A stretch of 64,000 nt of DNA, taken from the IMG/VR virus record IMGVR_UViG_3300003465_000003, positions 35,794 through 99,793 of that record. One strand, written 5' to 3'. A model generated the notes under the pieces. That model did no database searches, was not told the DNA's origin, and saw only the letters and a program-made list of their open reading frames with translations. A program made the position numbers and the translations under genes. The first letter of the stretch is position 1. Each line of letters starts with the position of its first letter. Positions 203 to 60,629 of the stretch are shown here, piece by piece. Origin of the DNA: a virus.

Positions 203-571
203 TCACTCGCCCTCCGCTGGAACAATCCAACCCTTCTGCGTTCTATATTCAACCTTAAGATTATCAGGTTGCATCAGTTCTTCTACTCGCTCATCAATAC
301 TCTTATGCTCAGTCATTAGGCTAGCACGCAGTTTGGCCCATGATTGAAATGTCTTACTCTCTGCCATCCTACGAAAGGCAAGCTCTTTGTTCTTTTGTTG
401 ACTACGGGTGTCCACTGCGCGCCCTACTGCGCCAGAGTGTTTATGTAGAATACGAACTCCTGTATTGGATGTATCTTTCCCACTTCCCCCGTGTCCACCT
501 ACTGTAAATGTCTGGACTTCGCAGTCTTTAATTGTTACGGAAAATAATGGTTTACAATTGTTCTTCGCCAT
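203..571 (-). CDS. RF-1-domain (release factor/ArfB/PrfH-like) peptidyl-tRNA hydrolase homolog with GGS in place of GGQ
   Basis: TFTVGGHGGSGKDTSNTGVRILHKHSGAVG...RSQQKNKELA aligns without gaps to the RF1 domain-3 pattern [27 protein letters not shown]...RSQHKNK. Confidence 0.8.
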   Translation of the reverse strand: MAKNNCKPLFSVTIKDCEVQTFTVGGHGGSGKDTSNTGVRILHKHSGAVGRAVDTRSQQKNKELAFRRMAESKTFQSWAKLRASLMTEHKSIDERVEELMQPDNLKVEYRTQKGWIVPAEGE

Positions 572-2305: not shown

Positions 2306-2656
2306 TTATTCTCCTTTTCCGTATAAATGTAAATGTCCAGTTATTTCGTTAATCTCTTCATCTTCTGCGGGACCAATGCCGAGTCCTGTTATAGTTCCCG
2401 GCGTTACCTCGGTCCTGCCTTCATCACAGATAAGTGCGGCAGGCAAATATCTGGAGACGGCCGTCTTGTATAGGGAAATAAGGATGTCCTGCCCGTATAC
2501 ACCTAACACAATCTTTGTAGTCCCTGTTCGGCCCCATTCATCTAAATCATCTTTAGATGTCAGATTACATGCTGCTACTGCGGCATGGGCTGCTTGAGAT
2601 GCTAATTTGCCAGGGGACATTCCCAAATCCTCCCGCATCACTAATACTTGCTTCAT
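2306..2656 (-). CDS. pth2: Peptidyl-tRNA hydrolase, Pth2 family
   Basis: KQVLVMREDLGMSPGKLASQAAHA, KIVL, DEGRTEV.PGTITGLGIGP, ITGHLHL: canonical PTH2 signature. Confidence 0.93.
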   Translation of the reverse strand: MKQVLVMREDLGMSPGKLASQAAHAAVAACNLTSKDDLDEWGRTGTTKIVLGVYGQDILISLYKTAVSRYLPAALICDEGRTEVTPGTITGLGIGPAEDEEINEITGHLHLYGKGE

Positions 2657-29329: not shown

Positions 29330-30943
29330 TTACAACCTCGCAAATTCCTGAACCGCCTGCGGAACGCTGCTATCAAATCCTGCAACGTCCGTCTGGAACG
29401 GATCATTGGGGTCCGCAATAGAGAACTTCGTAGGCGTCATCGCAATAACAACCTGCTTCGCATTGATCCCCATCTTGTCCCGGTATTGCTGCAATGACTG
29501 GCTAGGATGTGGTCCTGTATTGACTTCGTTATCCGTGATAATGATAAAGCAGTCCACTTCTACCTTGTTCTTCAATGCCCATTGTGTGGGCAGAGAGCAG
29601 TTGGTAGATCCAAATCGCATTGCGTTAGTCCGCTGCAATGCATCTGTCAACCGCATCTTGGGCGTAATGCCAAGGTCGCGGAATGTATCTGCAAATCCCA
29701 TGATGTAGTTGGTCTTCTCAACCTTCGCCACAGCAAGGGCCATAGCAGCAGCACCTTCAGCACAAGTCATGTTGCATGACGGGATGCTGGCCCAACCCAT
29801 ACTGCCTGATACGTCCACACCGAACAGGAACCGCTTACCAGTAGGCTCCACGAACTTGAACGCATTGTAAAAAGCCTCATCTAAGGCATCCACAACGGCA
29901 GGAACAGGTGTCCACACGCCAGCGCCACGGAGTCCGTGTCCGGCTGCGTACTGCTTCATAGCAATAAGGATCGCCACAGGATGCACGCGATTCTTCGCAA
30001 AGCTCTGTGCCGCACGGTCCCCCGACAGCTTATCCACAACTGTATTCGCTGCATTGGATAGTGGCTTAAGCAACCCGACCTTGCTCATATTGCCTAGATT
30101 ACGCAACAGAGCGTGCGGCGGCATCTTCTCCAAGAGAGCTTCCCACACTTCCGGCTTGGTAAGAGCCTCAGTGGGGAGCATCTCGCGGGAGAGATTGTAG
30201 TCGCGGATTAAGGACACCAAGTAATTCGTGTTAGTGCCGGATCTCTTTGCGAACTCGAATGCGGACACGATCAGTGGACCCTTGTAATTCTGGATATCTG
30301 CACCCTCGACCCTGCCTAAATCAATACCATCTACGATCCAGTTGTAAAGAATGTTCCGCACTTCATCTTCAGTCTTGGGGTGCGCCAACCGCAGTGCGTC
30401 CCTGTTGCTGAACCCATCCCGGCTCTGATACTTGACAACCTGATACGCCAATTCTTCAACCGGCTTGCTGTTGTACCACTCAGCTACCGCCCGCTTCAGC
30501 GCACGACCCCAACCACGGAACTGCTGAACGTAGGTCAGGAAGTGGAACAAGTGCGTCGGGATACGGGCCACCTTGGGCAACGCAGCAAGTGCATACGCCC
30601 GCGTACCGGCATCCTTAGCAGACGCAGCAAGGGCAAGAGCAAACAGGGCAGGATCATTTTTAACCGCCCGACCCTCATCAGAGATGGCTACGATAAGGTC
30701 AATTGCCCTCTTACCATCGGCTTCGATGCACTTGATGACATTCTCTGCATTCTCGCGTGTAAGCTTCTGTTCCCCAACATAGTAAGAGCCGCCCTCAGAT
30801 CCAAGGATAAGGAATCGTTCCATCTGCTTGAATTGGTCAAGTCGGTAGACGAACCCACCAGTGTTATTAGCAACCTGCTGCCGTCCCAGAATCGGCTCAT
30901 GCACGGACGAAATACGCGTGTTAAGCGAAGTGTATGCCTTCAT
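29330..30943 (-). CDS. rsr: Ro60/Rsr TROVE-domain RNA-binding protein with vWA domain
   Basis: NNTGGFVY, RFLILGSEGGSYY, GWGRALKRAVAEWY, KYQSRDG, ALLRNLG, RVHP, DVSGSM MIDAS, ITDNE, AGFDS. Confidence 0.95.
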   Translation of the reverse strand: MKAYTSLNTRISSVHEPILGRQQVANNTGGFVYRLDQFKQMERFLILGSEGGSYYVGEQKLTRENAENVIKCIEADGKRAIDLIVAISDEGRAVKNDPALFALALAASAKDAGTRAYALAALPKVARIPTHLFHFLTYVQQFRGWGRALKRAVAEWYNSKPVEELAYQVVKYQSRDGFSNRDALRLAHPKTEDEVRNILYNWIVDGIDLGRVEGADIQNYKGPLIVSAFEFAKRSGTNTNYLVSLIRDYNLSREMLPTEALTKPEVWEALLEKMPPHALLRNLGNMSKVGLLKPLSNAANTVVDKLSGDRAAQSFAKNRVHPVAILIAMKQYAAGHGLRGAGVWTPVPAVVDALDEAFYNAFKFVEPTGKRFLFGVDVSGSMGWASIPSCNMTCAEGAAAMALAVAKVEKTNYIMGFADTFRDLGITPKMRLTDALQRTNAMRFGSTNCSLPTQWALKNKVEVDCFIIITDNEVNTGPHPSQSLQQYRDKMGINAKQVVIAMTPTKFSIADPNDPFQTDVAGFDSSVPQAVQEFARL

Positions 30944-31568
30944 GATTTATTCCTTCTTTCGTAAAGTCCTTTGTGAAATTCGCAAGCCATTGGGGTAGGA
31001 ATCCACTTGAATACTCGGTTAAGAATCGGGTGTTTATCTACGCTCCATGTCATGGGTTGGCCCCATGCAAGGATTAAGTGCCTTGCCATCCCAGCCATTC
31101 CTTCTCTCGGTGCATGCATGAAACACCAATCCATTGGGTGATCGTCTTCGCCTGCGCTCATTACCAACCCCTTACTTGCACTCCCAGCACGGTTTACTCT
31201 TCTTACAACACGGCTCTAGACGCTGATTACGGCCAGAGAAGTCTGTGTAATGGGCATAGTTCCAGTCAGGGTGTTTGGTGCCGTCTTTAACAAGTCTTAT
31301 CTTAATCACTGGAGGCTTCTTTTCCTTCATACTGTCTCCTCCCCTATACGCTGTTCTTCCTGCTCCCGGAACGACTTAGCCCACTCCGGTTCCGGAAACG
31401 CTTTCTCGAACCGCTTGCGCAGTTCCGATTCCGCATACGTGGCTGTAACAATGTCCGCGTATAGCCAGTTTTCAATGCACTGACGCATTGTTTTCCGCTC
31501 AAAGCCTGTTTCAGAAGGCATGTTTCCCACCACTAGAGTAAGCAAAATCTTATAACCAATAGTAATGA

Positions 31569-31637
31569 TGCCGCGAACAAATGTGTAAGCAGCGGTTTTA
31601 TCTTTAGCATGATAACGCTACTCAACGGCTCGTGGCA
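31569..31637 (-). ncRNA. Short Y-RNA-like RNA 1 (Ro-binding module only)
   Basis: GCCACGAGC-CG...GCGUUAUC...CGCUGCUUACACAUUUGUUCGCGGC: terminal stem and motifs shared with YrlA at 32497. Confidence 0.7.
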
Positions 31638-31874
31638 CGTTTCATACACCCACTATTTTGGTTTCGCCGGAATGCACAGCACTCAGTATGGCGTCTCGAA
31701 CTACCCCATAATAGTGAAGCTTATTATGACCGTTAAGAAAGACATCAAAATCATCAGCAAGGTCTATTGCTTCTTTAACCGTAAGTTCAATTACAACTTT
31801 CTCTACCGGTGGGAGCTTCTCCACTGGTCTAATTCCCGTAATCTTCATGATATTCTCCTAGGTGCTGAAAGGGT

Positions 31875-32072: not shown

Positions 32073-32157
32073 TGGTGGAGCGTACGGGACTCGAACCCGC
32101 GTCCTGCCATGTTATTCATTGCCGCGAATCTGCACTGCAATGTCAATGACACGCCCC
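32073..32157 (-). ncRNA. Miniature tmRNA-like RNA (tRNA-like domain only, Ala identity)
   Basis: 5' GGGGCGU and 3' GGACGCGGGUUCGAGUCCCGUACGCUCCACCA; G3.U70 pair; no D stem; 85 nt in total. Confidence 0.7.
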
Positions 32158-32167
32158 ATAAATGTGG

Positions 32168-32241
32168 GGCACGAGCAAGGTGTAGATCAGGGTGTTTGGT
32201 CATTGACTAAGAATGATAACCCTAACCAAGCGGCTCGTGCC
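32168..32241 (-). ncRNA. Short Y-RNA-like RNA 2 (Ro-binding module only)
   Basis: GGCACGAGC/GCUCGUGCC perfect terminal stem, CG, GGUUAUC, ACACCUUG. Confidence 0.75.
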
Positions 32242-32496
32242 GTTCTTGTTACCGATTCTGACTAGCTCTCTTGCGTGCTAAATCGTTATAGAACCAGACA
32301 TCGTGTAAGGAAACACCAGTAGGCGGTAAATCAGGGACAGACGCTGGATGCGAGGTGCAAAGAACACCAACGGCCGCATTACCATGAATACTTACTGGCA
32401 GTTCTGGATCGAACTTGCTTAATTCGTCCATCAACTTACCAACTGTCCATCGTTCCAACATTGCCATAAGTAAACTACCACCTTTTCCTTAATGTT

Positions 32497-32632
32497 GCGC
32501 AGAACAAGTTGTGACTAAGGTTACGTTTTGACGGTCGCTCTACCACTGAGCTACGTTGGGGAGATCCCCAACGGCGGGAATCGAACCCGCGACATACTGT
32601 GTATTGATAACCCTCAGTCTACGGCTCTACGC
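32497..32632 (-). ncRNA. yrlA: YrlA-type Y RNA with permuted tRNA-like domain
   Basis: GAGCCG...GGUUAUC, then T arm GCGGGUUCGAUUCCCGC, closed acceptor-like stem CGUUGGGGA/UCCCCAACG, D arm GCUCAGUGGUAGAGC, then ACAACUUGUUC; upstream of Ro60. Confidence 0.85.
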
Positions 32633-33031
32633 TTGTTTCACACGTGATCAATTTGGCGTAAATCTCTTTAGCTGCACGCTTATAAGCCTCGGACCATCCA
32701 CGCAATGACTGCGGACCTGTAGGGCTACTACATGTAACCAGTGCGGATCTTATAACTCGCAGTTCTGCAATAATCAGGCCAGTAATACTGTAAGATTCCA
32801 TTGTTTGTGTAACTCGTTCTACTTTAGCCATTGACTTTCTCCATGAACCAAATGGGGCTACGGACCCGCAACACTTTGGACCTTGGCCACATAACATTTC
32901 TTTGCTTACAAGACTCGTCATGGGGCTCCTTCATTGGAACCCTGGAGTCTCCACCGTTTCCAAAGACGTGTCTTTCGCAGGACGCGCAAACAAGTTCATG
33001 CTTAGGAAACCTGTTGGTCATAGGTTAAAAT

Positions 33032-33107
33032 TGGAGGGCGGAAGGGACTCGAACCCCTCATATCTATTGCGCATTCCGGCAAGGGAGACCATTCACCTGC
33101 ACGCCCC
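33032..33107 (-). tRNA. Degenerate tRNA-like RNA (76 nt, no clear anticodon)
   Basis: GGGCG/CGCCC acceptor, G18G19, T arm AGGGG-UUCGAGU-CCCUU, UCCA end; D and anticodon arms non-canonical. Confidence 0.55.
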
Positions 33108-40495: not shown

Positions 40496-40572
40496 TGGTG
40501 GGCCGTGCTGGACTTGAACCAGCAACCTACCGATTATGAGCCGGTTGCTCTAACCGTTTGAGCTAACGGCCC
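40496..40572 (-). tRNA. tRNA(CAT), probably Ile2 (lysidine-modified)
   Basis: Canonical cloverleaf, CTCATAA loop, body resembles bacterial ileX, encoded CCA. Confidence 0.9.
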
Positions 40573-60499: not shown

Positions 60500-60548
60500 A
60501 GGGAGCCGTTCGGCGGTGCAGCAGGTTCGAATCCTGCGCTCCCTGCCA
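60500..60548 (+). ncRNA. Minimal tRNA-like element (acceptor plus T arm, 49 nt)
   Basis: AGGGAGC/GCTCCCT-G-CCA, perfect GCAGG-TTCGAAT-CCTGC T arm, only 14 nt in place of the D and anticodon arms. Confidence 0.7.
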
Positions 60549-60553
60549 ATTTT

Positions 60554-60629
60554 GCCGAGGTAGCTCAGTGCTAGAGCGCGTGGTTTTATGCCGCGAGGTC
60601 GGGCGGTTCGATTCCCTCTCTCGGCTCCA
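60554..60629 (+). tRNA. Atypical tRNA with UUUUAUG anticodon loop (nominal UUA)
   Basis: Full cloverleaf GCCGAGG/TCTCGGC, GCTC/GAGC, CGTGG/CCGCG, TCCA end; D-loop lacks GG and T stem is bulged. Confidence 0.65.

What the first reader, a model, noticed from the sequence alone, without database searches (positions are those of the whole stretch)
32073..32157. 85-nt tmRNA-like RNA with no mRNA domain
Seen: the 3' end GGAC-GCGGGUUCGAGUCCCGU-ACGCUCC-ACCA and the 5' GGGGCGU...GAC follow the tmRNA tRNA-like domain, including the G3.U70 AlaRS determinant and the missing D stem. The roughly 270-nt pseudoknot/tag region is replaced by an irregular hairpin of about 40 nt, and the gene is not permuted. 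A short frame GCA GAU UCG CGG CAA UGA (ADSRQ*) lies inside and may be chance. Inference: an alanylated SmpB sponge, or an RNA that accepts stalled peptides without adding a degron. The resulting peptidyl-RNA could be recycled by the phage Pth2, uncoupling ribosome rescue from proteolysis.
Basis: partly seen in the sequence, partly recalled or inferred. Interest (0 to 1): 0.85.

Follow-up and report, generated by a model that had tools for sequence, protein, structure and literature searches.

The report
Divergent phage mini-tmRNA (TLD only)
An 85-base phage RNA gene copies only the alanine-accepting, tRNA-like end of the bacterial ribosome-rescue RNA (tmRNA); this tag-less form is already known from mycobacteriophage DS6A and is common in phage DNA, and this copy is an unusually divergent one sitting among Ro60-associated small RNAs.

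Summary
On the minus strand at 32073-32157 lies an 85-nt RNA with a perfect 7-bp acceptor stem carrying G3:U70, discriminator A, encoded CCA, a canonical T arm preceded by GGAC, and no D stem or anticodon arm. ARAGORN calls nothing. The Rfam tmRNA model aligns end to end at exactly these coordinates (31.2 bits) and the tRNA model gives 17.4.

It is not a new kind of RNA. Mycobacteriophage DS6A has a published "TLD only" tmRNA (83 nt; 43.2 bits in the same test). A pattern scan of IMG/VR returned at least 80 such RNAs with strong covariation. A model built from them without the window RNA scores it at 41.9 bits (E 1.6e-7). This scan has reported such phage mini-tmRNAs before on other DNA.

This copy is divergent. 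It lacks the near-invariant GG of the D-loop analogue and has a different central hairpin with a 12-nt extra linker, so SmpB binding is uncertain. The ADSRQ frame is chance.

No phage SmpB exists. Pth2 and an RF-1-domain protein are in this genome but in none of 40 other mini-tmRNA phages.

The most likely role is a decoy for the host trans-translation machinery. This is inferred, not shown. Verdict: new member of a known kind, moderate interest.

The parts
32073..32157 (-). Mini-tmRNA gene: 85-nt tRNA-like-domain-only tmRNA homologue
   Evidence: RF00023 end-to-end match, 31.2 bits. Family model R1 gives 41.9 bits, E 1.6e-7. The tRNA model gives only 17.4 bits.
32151..32157 (-). Acceptor stem, 5' strand (GGGGCGU, RNA nt 1-7)
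   Evidence: Pairs 7 of 7 with nt 75-81. The third pair is G:U.
32077..32083 (-). Acceptor stem, 3' strand (ACGCUCC, nt 75-81)
   Evidence: Read from the sequence; found by the acceptor/T-arm scan.
32073..32076 (-). Discriminator A plus encoded CCA (nt 82-85)
   Evidence: Read from the sequence. The phage's ARAGORN-called tRNAs whose 3' ends were read (Leu, Met at 40496-40572, Gly, suppressor) also encode CCA.
32084..32100 (-). T arm (nt 58-74): 5-bp stem, loop UUCGAGU
   Evidence: Local match to tmRNA model positions 346-363.
32101..32104 (-). GGAC directly 5' of the T stem (nt 54-57), the tmRNA neck motif
   Evidence: GGAC is the commonest tetramer at this place in the family, 34 of 67. Aligned with PP near 1.
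32142..32150 (-). D-loop analogue (nt 8-16, ending in GAC); it has no GG
   Evidence: low posterior probability here. 64 of 67 family members have GG here.
32117..32142 (-). Central hairpin (nt 16-41) in place of helix P2 and the mRNA-like domain
   Evidence: Present in the minimum-energy and constrained folds, -29.6 and -26.9 kcal/mol. The family-like fold gives only -19.4.
32105..32116 (-). 12-nt linker between the hairpin and GGAC (nt 42-53), absent from typical family members. It may pair in part with nt 8-12.
32158..32248 (-). Y-RNA-like long hairpin directly 5' of the mini-tmRNA. Probably the same precursor transcript.
   Evidence: z-score -4.5. Shares the motif GAGCCG..GGTTATC with the YrlA-like RNA: 2 matches, 0 expected. 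Folds independently of the mini-tmRNA.
32514..32614 (-). YrlA-like Y RNA with a tRNA-like module
   Evidence: RF02553, 40 bits (gathering score 69), E 1.2e-7. z-score -3.0.
29330..30943 (-). Ro60/Rsr orthologue, downstream on the same strand
   Evidence: Pfam vWA_Ro60 5.9e-54 and TROVE 5.2e-38.
2306..2656 (-). Pth2-type peptidyl-tRNA hydrolase (context only)
   Evidence: PF01981, 119.5 bits.
203..571 (-). RF-1-domain (ArfB-like) protein with GGS in place of GGQ (context only)
   Evidence: PF00472, 38 bits. Translation.

Best explanation
The 85-nt RNA is a phage-encoded, tag-less tmRNA homologue that keeps only the tRNA-like domain (TLD). It is a divergent member of the family typified by the 'TLD only' tmRNA of mycobacteriophage DS6A.

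Inferred steps:
1. It is transcribed with the surrounding Y-RNA/small-ORF array upstream of the phage Ro60 gene.
2. It is cut out like a tRNA: RNase P at G1 and 3' trimming to the encoded CCA.
3. It is charged with alanine by the host AlaRS through G3:U70 and A73.
4. It has no resume codon or tag frame, so it cannot carry out trans-translation. Instead it competes with host tmRNA for the factors that recognise the TLD (SmpB, AlaRS, EF-Tu).
5. The result is less SsrA tagging and proteolysis during infection.

Shown here: the anatomy, the family membership, and the absence of a phage SmpB and of a coding part. Everything about processing, charging, binding and effect is inferred.
For: Identity:
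- tmRNA model 31.2 bits end to end, against 17.4 bits for the tRNA model.
- DS6A's published TLD-only RNA behaves the same way in this test: 83 nt, 43.2 bits, also below the gathering score.
- Family model R1, built without this sequence, gives 41.9 bits, E 1.6e-7.

The family is real:
- 80 hits at 46 bits or more in 100 sources.
- 90.7% of cells are paired against 65% in shuffles. 17 of 20 pairs change on both sides. Slid controls score 0.10 or less against 0.54.
- L219 and L222 are typical members with the very same acceptor stem as the window RNA.

Determinants present:
- G3:U70, A73, CCA, a T loop of the usual form, GGAC, and a 5' GAC.
- PMC3968760 names G3:U70 plus the discriminator A as the keys for AlaRS, and the TLD elbow as the SmpB site.

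Mechanism:
- PMC4131195 and PMC11915505 report that a DS6A-type TLD molecule inhibits endogenous tmRNA in E. coli, perhaps by titrating SmpB.
- There is no SmpB gene in this genome or in 40 other records with a mini-tmRNA, so any SmpB partner must be the host's.
- There is no full-length tmRNA in the phage.

Not coding.

Not an attP:
- No tyrosine integrase in a genome rated 100% complete.
- No bacterial genome among 185,579 species carries the 3' 32 nt.
Against: - The D-loop analogue lacks the GG that 64 of 67 family members keep. D-loop/T-loop interaction is reported as needed for SmpB binding and function.
- The middle of the RNA does not fit the family fold: -19.4 against -26.9 kcal/mol. 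Posterior probabilities in that part of the alignment are low.
- About 30 of the 41.9 bits can come from a tmRNA 3' end alone. An arbitrary upstream stretch plus the 3' end of the SlimJimmy tmRNA scores 33.9.
- The whole-RNA fold is not unusually stable (z -1.2).
- No close relative of this particular RNA was found, so selection on it cannot be shown.
- No expression data exist.
- The benefit to a phage of blocking ribosome rescue is not established.
Confidence: 0.5

Rival explanations
1. Tag-free rescue acceptor. Ala-mini-tmRNA with host SmpB and EF-Tu enters stalled ribosomes and accepts the nascent chain. With no message to resume on, it leaves as peptidyl-RNA, which the phage Pth2 or the host Pth hydrolyses. 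Ribosomes are freed without a degradation tag.
For: - All alanylation determinants are present.
- The genome also encodes Pth2 and an RF-1-domain, ArfB-like protein. It therefore carries a ribosome-rescue theme alongside RNA repair genes: PNKP, RlaP, RNA ligase, Ro60.
- CDS-less mitochondrial tmRNAs co-occur with SmpB and are thought to help with incomplete mRNAs (PMC11915505).
Against: - Pth2 and RF-1-domain proteins are absent from all 40 other mini-tmRNA phage records, 19 of them at least 90% complete. The RNA family does not depend on them.
- This route needs productive SmpB binding, which the missing D-loop GG makes doubtful.
- The published effect of a DS6A-type molecule is inhibition, and it is independent of charging.
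Confidence: 0.15
2. A cis-acting or Ro60-linked tRNA-like module. The element serves mainly as an RNase P / 3'-end processing signal that releases the neighbouring Y-like RNAs and small-ORF mRNAs from one long transcript. Alternatively it is itself a partner of the Ro60/Y-RNA particle. In either case it does not act on trans-translation.
For: - It sits 10 nt after a strongly folded Y-like hairpin (z -4.5) and about 360 nt after a YrlA-like RNA. All are on one strand upstream of Ro60, with no predicted promoter or terminator in between.
- Leader and trailer can pair to extend the acceptor stem.
- M. smegmatis YrlA is cut by RNase P and receives CCA, and YrlA and YrlB come from a single precursor (PMC4201824).
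- The phage holds other acceptor/T-arm minihelices that are not tRNAs.
Against: - G3:U70, A73 and GGAC are tmRNA/AlaRS-specific features that a mere processing signal does not need.
- The same RNA family occurs in many phages without Ro60: TROVE in 1 of 41 records.
- 79 other Ro60 loci show no mini-tmRNA next to Ro60.
- Typical family members share its exact acceptor stem, which points to descent from a free-standing mini-tmRNA.
Confidence: 0.15
3. A decaying relic. It was once a canonical mini-tmRNA, has since lost its D-loop GG and P2 helix, and is drifting without function.
For: - It lacks the near-invariant GG and the family-type P2 and inner hairpin.
- It scores at the bottom edge of the family, 41.9 bits against 46-87.
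- Fold z-score is only -1.2.
- The closest Ro60 relative (72% aa) has no such RNA upstream.
Against: - The acceptor stem (7 of 7), T arm (5 of 5), T-loop consensus, GGAC, discriminator and CCA are all intact. That is unexpected after long drift.
- The centre still forms a stable hairpin.
- Three other family members also lack GG.
Confidence: 0.15
4. An attP site or a captured fragment of a host ssrA 3' end, or an aberrant tRNA-Ala or pseudo-tRNA.
For: - The 3' 35 nt resemble many tmRNA and tRNA-Ala 3' ends at 83-90%.
- Phages often integrate into ssrA (PMC11915505).
Against: - A complete complementary 5' acceptor strand is present.
- No tyrosine integrase in a complete genome.
- No exact copy of the 3' 32 nt in 185,579 species genomes. 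The looser pattern found only two other mini forms and one chance hit.
- tRNA model 17.4 bits, and ARAGORN makes no call.
Confidence: 0.04

Closest known systems
'TLD only' (CDS-less) tmRNA of Mycobacterium phage DS6A (JN698994 28478-28560; tmRNA Website tmID 11587 / Phage__Mycobacterium.9; PMC4131195, PMC11915505, Mao et al. 2009 as cited there)
   Same: - Phage-borne, about 83-85 nt, not permuted.
- 7-bp acceptor stem with G3:U70, discriminator A, T arm, no D stem, no anticodon arm, no tag frame.
- Both align end to end to RF00023 below its gathering score: 43.2 and 31.2 bits.
- Neither phage encodes SmpB.
   Different: - DS6A has the D-loop GG, a P2 helix flanked directly by GAC and (G)CAC, and the conserved inner hairpin. 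It has no encoded CCA.
- The window RNA lacks GG, has a different hairpin plus a 12-nt linker, and encodes CCA.
- DS6A is a temperate phage with an integrase and RtcB. The window phage has no integrase and places the RNA in a Y-RNA/Ro60 array.
Uncultivated-phage TLD-only RNA family (model R1, alignments A1/A2). It is also present but unannotated in cultured Streptomyces phages (LuckySocke, GiJojo, pSt2308, BRock, Alone3) and Stenotrophomonas virus Jojan60.
   Same: - Same overall architecture.
- L219 and L222 carry the identical acceptor stem.
- The window RNA matches the model over its full length.
   Different: - The window RNA is at the low edge of the scores.
- Its D-loop analogue is 3-4 nt shorter and has no GG.
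- Its central region does not adopt the covarying P2 and inner hairpin.
Standard one-piece tmRNA (SsrA, Rfam RF00023)
   Same: The 5' and 3' ends: acceptor stem with G3:U70, GAC...GGAC neck, T arm, ACCA.
   Different: About 270 nt are missing: pseudoknots, resume codon, tag reading frame, helix 5. The one short frame present is chance, so it cannot add a tag.
Mitochondrial CDS-less tmRNA of jakobids and oomycetes (Rfam RF02544) and the ~65-bp plastid forms (PMC11915505)
   Same: Natural tmRNA derivatives that keep only the tRNA-like part.
   Different: No match to RF02544. Those are organellar and work with a nucleus-encoded SmpB. The origin here is independent and phage-borne.
YrlA-type bacterial Y RNAs (Rfam RF02553; Chen et al. 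2014, PMC4201824)
   Same: tRNA mimics encoded next to Ro60. M. smegmatis YrlA is cut by RNase P and receives CCA.
   Different: YrlA has T and D arms enclosed by a Ro60-binding stem, and no G3:U70 acceptor end. The YrlA match in this window is a separate RNA at 32514-32614.

Membership tests
tmRNA tRNA-like domain / phage TLD-only tmRNA | 7-bp acceptor stem formed by the 5' and 3' ends, with a G3:U70 wobble pair | tested here: met
   GGGGCGU pairs with ACGCUCC, 7 of 7, third pair G:U.
tmRNA tRNA-like domain / phage TLD-only tmRNA | Discriminator A followed by CCA (encoded or added) | tested here: met
   ACCA at 32073-32076. 25 of 67 family members also encode CCA.
tmRNA tRNA-like domain / phage TLD-only tmRNA | T arm: 5-bp stem and 7-nt loop of the UUCRANY type | tested here: met
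   nt 58-74. Matches tmRNA model positions 346-363.
tmRNA tRNA-like domain / phage TLD-only tmRNA | No D stem and no anticodon arm; does not score as a tRNA | tested here: met
   RF00005 17.4 bits against a cut-off of 29. ARAGORN makes no call.
tmRNA tRNA-like domain / phage TLD-only tmRNA | Neck motifs: GAC at the end of the D-loop analogue and (G)GAC directly 5' of the T stem | tested here: met
   GAC at nt 14-16 and GGAC at nt 54-57. GGAC in 34 of 67 members and a 5' GAY in 49 of 67. That the two motifs pair with each other is recalled from the tmRNA literature and was not tested.
tmRNA tRNA-like domain / phage TLD-only tmRNA | GG in the single-stranded D-loop analogue (partner of the T loop; needed for SmpB binding according to Barends 2002 as cited in PMC3968760) | tested here: not met
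   nt 8-16 contain no GG. 64 of 67 distinct family members have it.
tmRNA tRNA-like domain / phage TLD-only tmRNA | Helix P2 starting directly between GAC and GGAC, closed by a short inner hairpin (both covary in the family) | tested here: not met
   The family-like fold gives -19.4 kcal/mol against -26.9 and -29.6 for its own hairpin folds. There is a 12-nt extra 3' linker.
tmRNA tRNA-like domain / phage TLD-only tmRNA | Significant full-length match to a covariance model of the family built without the sequence | tested here: met
   R1: 41.9 bits, E 1.6e-7, positions 1-81 of 81. Clear members score 46-87 bits.
tmRNA tRNA-like domain / phage TLD-only tmRNA | Alanylation by AlaRS; binding of SmpB and EF-Tu | not testable with these tools
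   No RNA-protein prediction or assay is available. The determinants were only read from the sequence.
Standard tmRNA (Rfam RF00023) | Score at or above the gathering threshold of 47 bits | tested here: not met
   31.2 bits. No hit in the gathering-threshold scan. DS6A also fails, with 43.2.
Standard tmRNA (Rfam RF00023) | mRNA-like domain with resume codon, tag reading frame and pseudoknots | tested here: not met
   Only 50 nt lie between the acceptor strand and the T arm. The ADSRQ frame occurs in 57% of shuffles. The family is depleted in such frames.
tRNA (Rfam RF00005) / tRNA-Ala | Cloverleaf with D arm and anticodon arm; score at or above 29 bits | tested here: not met
   17.4 bits. ARAGORN negative.
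mt-tmRNA (Rfam RF02544) | Match to the family model | tested here: not met
   No match at E up to 10.
YrlA Y RNA (Rfam RF02553) | Ro60-binding closing stem enclosing T- and D-arm mimics | tested here: not met
   The only YrlA match in the genome is at 32514-32614, not here.

The most novel reading that the evidence does not exclude
In this phage the mini-tmRNA is one arm of a phage-encoded, tag-free ribosome-rescue and RNA-damage module. It either blocks host SmpB-tmRNA tagging or accepts stalled peptides itself. The GGS RF-1-domain protein and Pth2 release and recycle the products. PNKP, RNA ligase, RlaP and Ro60 with its Y RNAs repair or clear cleaved tRNAs and mRNAs. Together these would let the phage keep translating under host RNA-cleaving defences. 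Its placement inside the Y-RNA array would then reflect co-regulation with Ro60.
Probability: 0.1. Interest if true: 0.8.

Novelty: new member of a known kind. Interest (0 to 1): 0.42.

Why it matters
Tag-less mini-tmRNAs are a natural, compact way for a virus to touch the bacterial ribosome-rescue system. Only one phage example (DS6A) is in the literature I could read, and no phage-context experiment has been reported there.

This copy adds two things:
- An unusual genomic setting: inside a Ro60/Y-RNA array, in a genome that also carries Pth2, an ArfB-like factor and an RNA-repair kit.
- A natural variant that keeps all alanylation determinants but lacks the D-loop GG thought to be needed for SmpB. 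Comparing it with canonical members could separate the contributions of AlaRS/EF-Tu competition and SmpB titration.

As an isolated finding it is an incremental member of a known and, as this scan has repeatedly seen, widespread family.

Tried and rejected
- Exact or near-exact relatives of this RNA: none in IMG/VR with a specific pattern. No nucleotide-level relative of the locus in cultured phages.
- 79 metagenome loci and 9 IMG/VR loci with Ro60 relatives: only L004 has a mini-tmRNA, 3.6 kb from Ro60.
- The closest Ro60 relative (L170, 72% aa) shares no upstream DNA and has no T-arm motif.
- A weak tmRNA-model hit in G003 (L015, 11.3 bits; 26.8 bits with R1) has a U:U at the 3:70 pair and no convincing fold. 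It was not counted.
- Host inference from the acceptor stem: no bacterial full-length tmRNA with this 3' end. The only hits were two mini forms in MAG contigs and one chance hit.
- Permuted-tmRNA reading: weak RF04321 hit at 12.1 bits. The downstream GGGG does not pair with the acceptor 3' strand, so this was rejected.
- Sequencing runs: none was listed for the locus, and no RNA holder was listed.
- Conserved protein partner: neighbours of family members are heterogeneous (protease/capsid, exonuclease, methyltransferases, HNH, tail genes), so no partner emerged.
- Co-occurrence in records carrying a mini-tmRNA: SmpB 0 of 40, PTH2 0 of 40, RF-1 0 of 40, RtcB 3 of 41, TROVE 1 of 41.
- Mao et al. 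2009 is not held in the library and is cited only second-hand.
- L219 and L222 share the acceptor stem but belong to unrelated phages.

Full report
**What is there.** The finding lies on the minus strand. RNA nt 1-85 correspond to window 32157-32073.
- nt 1-7 (GGGGCGU) pair perfectly with nt 75-81 (ACGCUCC), and the third pair is G:U.
- A82 is the discriminator, and CCA is encoded.
- nt 58-74 form a 5-bp T stem with the loop UUCGAGU. GGAC lies immediately before it.
- nt 8-16 are a short single-stranded stretch ending in GAC.
- nt 16-41 form a 6+3-bp hairpin, and nt 42-53 are a linker.
- There is no D stem and no anticodon arm.

**Is it more than chance, and is it a tRNA or a tmRNA?**
- ARAGORN finds five tRNAs in the window but nothing here. 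Rfam at gathering thresholds finds nothing here either.
- Scored against the whole genome, the tmRNA model RF00023 aligns from its first to its last position at exactly 32073-32157, with 31.2 bits and E 3e-12.
- The tRNA model gives 17.4 bits. The mitochondrial CDS-less tmRNA model gives nothing.
- The short frame GCA..UGA is chance. 57% of shuffles of the middle part contain such a frame. Related RNAs have fewer of them than expected, 16 of 67 against 31.

**Known precedent.**
- Hudson, Lau and Williams (PMC4131195) list 'Mycobacterium phage DS6A (TLD only)'. [quoted passage not shown] 2009).
- The 2025 tmRNA database paper (PMC11915505) repeats this. It also lists CDS-less forms in mitochondria and some plastids.
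- I located the DS6A RNA at JN698994 28478-28560. It is 83 nt with the same layout, and it also falls below the Rfam threshold in the same test, at 43.2 bits.

**A large family.**
- Most hits are 75-85-nt RNAs with a shared order of parts: acceptor, a GG-containing D-loop analogue ending in GAC, a P2 helix enclosing a small conserved hairpin, GGAC, T arm, acceptor.
- A covariance model (R1) from 38 of them plus DS6A found 80 hits at 46 bits or more in 100 sources.
- On the resulting alignment, 90.7% of cells pair against 65% after shuffling. 17 of 20 pairs change on both sides. The covariation score is 0.54 against 0.10 or less when partners are slid.
- G3:U70 was imposed by the search pattern and is not independent evidence. 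The P2, inner-hairpin and T-stem covariation is independent.
- The alignment was fitted to the model, which favours the structure somewhat.
- Members occur in complete phage genomes with terminal repeats. They also occur, unannotated, in cultured Streptomyces phages and a Stenotrophomonas phage.
- Another Ro60 phage (L004) has one with z -4.5. Its first 18 nt equal the 5' end of cluster C mycobacteriophage tmRNAs.
- Earlier agents of this scan reached the same picture on other genomes.

**Where the window RNA stands.**
- It was not used to build R1, yet it matches over the full length with 41.9 bits, E 1.6e-7. tRNAs in the same search score 24.6 or less.
- Two typical members (L219, L222) have exactly its acceptor stem.
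- It sits at the bottom edge of the family.
- About 30 bits can be earned by a tmRNA 3' end alone.
- Its D-loop analogue has no GG, unlike 64 of 67 distinct members.
- Its centre prefers its own hairpin (-26.9 and -29.6 kcal/mol) over the family fold (-19.4).
- The alanylation determinants are therefore intact, but the SmpB-binding surface may not be.

**Context.**
- All genes from about 35000 down to 29330 run on the minus strand, with no predicted terminator and no promoter-like site near the RNA.
- Upstream are a YrlA-like Y RNA (32514-32614; 40 bits, E 1.2e-7) and a strongly folded Y-like hairpin (32158-32248; z -4.5). The hairpin ends 10 nt before G1 and shares a GAGCCG..GGTTATC motif with the YrlA-like RNA.
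- Downstream is Ro60/Rsr.
- The genome also has Pth2, an RF-1-domain protein with GGS, PNKP, RlaP and an RNA ligase.
- It has no SmpB, no full-length tmRNA and no tyrosine integrase.

**Tests of the proposed links.**

| Family | Records with a mini-tmRNA that carry it |
|---|---|
| SmpB | 0 of 40 |
| PTH2 | 0 of 40 |
| RF-1 | 0 of 40 |
| RtcB | 3 of 41 |
| TROVE | 1 of 41 |

- Conversely, 79 metagenomic Ro60 loci show no mini-tmRNA beside Ro60.
- Gene neighbours of family members are heterogeneous.
- The RNA family therefore behaves as a self-contained gene that works with host factors. The Pth2 and Ro60 associations seen here are particular to this genome.

**Rejected alternatives.**
- attP or a captured ssrA end: no integrase, a complete 5' acceptor strand, and no identical 3' end in 185,579 species genomes.
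- Permuted tmRNA: the weak RF04321 hit does not give a pairing acceptor.

**Mechanism.**
- I commit to a host-factor decoy that lowers SsrA tagging. It is processed like a tRNA and probably alanylated. Confidence is about 0.5.
- This confidence is tempered by the missing GG.
- Tag-free acceptance of stalled peptides, a processing or Ro60-linked role, and a decaying relic each keep about 0.15.
- None of the functional steps is shown here.

**Verdict.** This is a new, divergent member of a known kind, of moderate interest, mainly for its setting and as a natural D-loop variant.

Noticed in passing
window 60500-60548 (+): A 49-nt minihelix with a perfect 7-bp acceptor stem, an 11-nt connector, a T arm and GCCA. 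It ends 5 nt before the suppressor tRNA (anticodon UUA) at 60554-60629. ARAGORN and Rfam do not call it.
   Followed up: partly
window 33031-33107 (-): A tRNA-sized RNA (about 76 nt) that starts with the same 8 nt as the mini-tmRNA (GGGGCGUG) and has a T arm and a ..CCA end. It has no cloverleaf, its fold z-score is 0.35, and it scores only 14 bits with R1. It may be a degenerate tRNA or tRNA mimic at the head of the RNA array.
   Followed up: partly
window 32158-32248 (-) and about 31560-31640 (-): Two further Y-RNA-like elements share GAGCCG and a GUUAUC-type box with the YrlA-like RNA at 32514-32614. The first is a long hairpin with z -4.5, directly 5' of the mini-tmRNA. Together with small ORFs they form an array upstream of Ro60.
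   Followed up: partly
window 203-571 (-): A 122-aa RF-1-domain (ArfB-like) protein has GGS where release factors have GGQ.
   Followed up: no
L083-type and L066-type IMG/VR loci; e.g. L057:1927, L066:13269, L028:7631-7712: In many uncultivated phages the mini-tmRNA starts 0-7 nt after the stop codon of the upstream ORF. In about 7 of 52 loci it lies between the S78 prohead protease and the major capsid gene. RNase P cutting there would leave the upstream mRNA ending at or next to its stop codon.
   Followed up: partly
OR725497.1 17977-18055; PP725410.1 17025-17103; PV588686.1 33356-33435; KX925554.1 97141-97211; ON045087.1 37724-37804: Cultured Streptomyces phages (LuckySocke, GiJojo, pSt2308, BRock, Alone3) and Stenotrophomonas virus Jojan60 carry TLD-only tmRNA-like genes. 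These are unannotated or overlaid by 'hypothetical protein'.
   Followed up: no
OQ995428.1 56073-56484 (L020): Mycobacterium phage SlimJimmy has a full-length tmRNA gene (99.7 bits with RF00023) that the record does not annotate.
   Followed up: no
L226:5802-5870 (-) and L227:1127-1197 (+): Mini tmRNA-like RNAs of about 70 nt with simple hairpin centres occur in MAG contigs labelled Oceaniferula and Candidatus Peribacteria. L227 has the same GGGGCGU acceptor strand as the window RNA. Whether these contigs are prophage or viral was not checked.
   Followed up: no
L004:2347-2435 (+): A second Ro60-encoding phage has an 85-89-nt TLD-only RNA (z -4.5). Its first 18 nt are identical to the 5' end of cluster C mycobacteriophage tmRNAs. 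It ends ACC-C rather than ACCA.
   Followed up: partly
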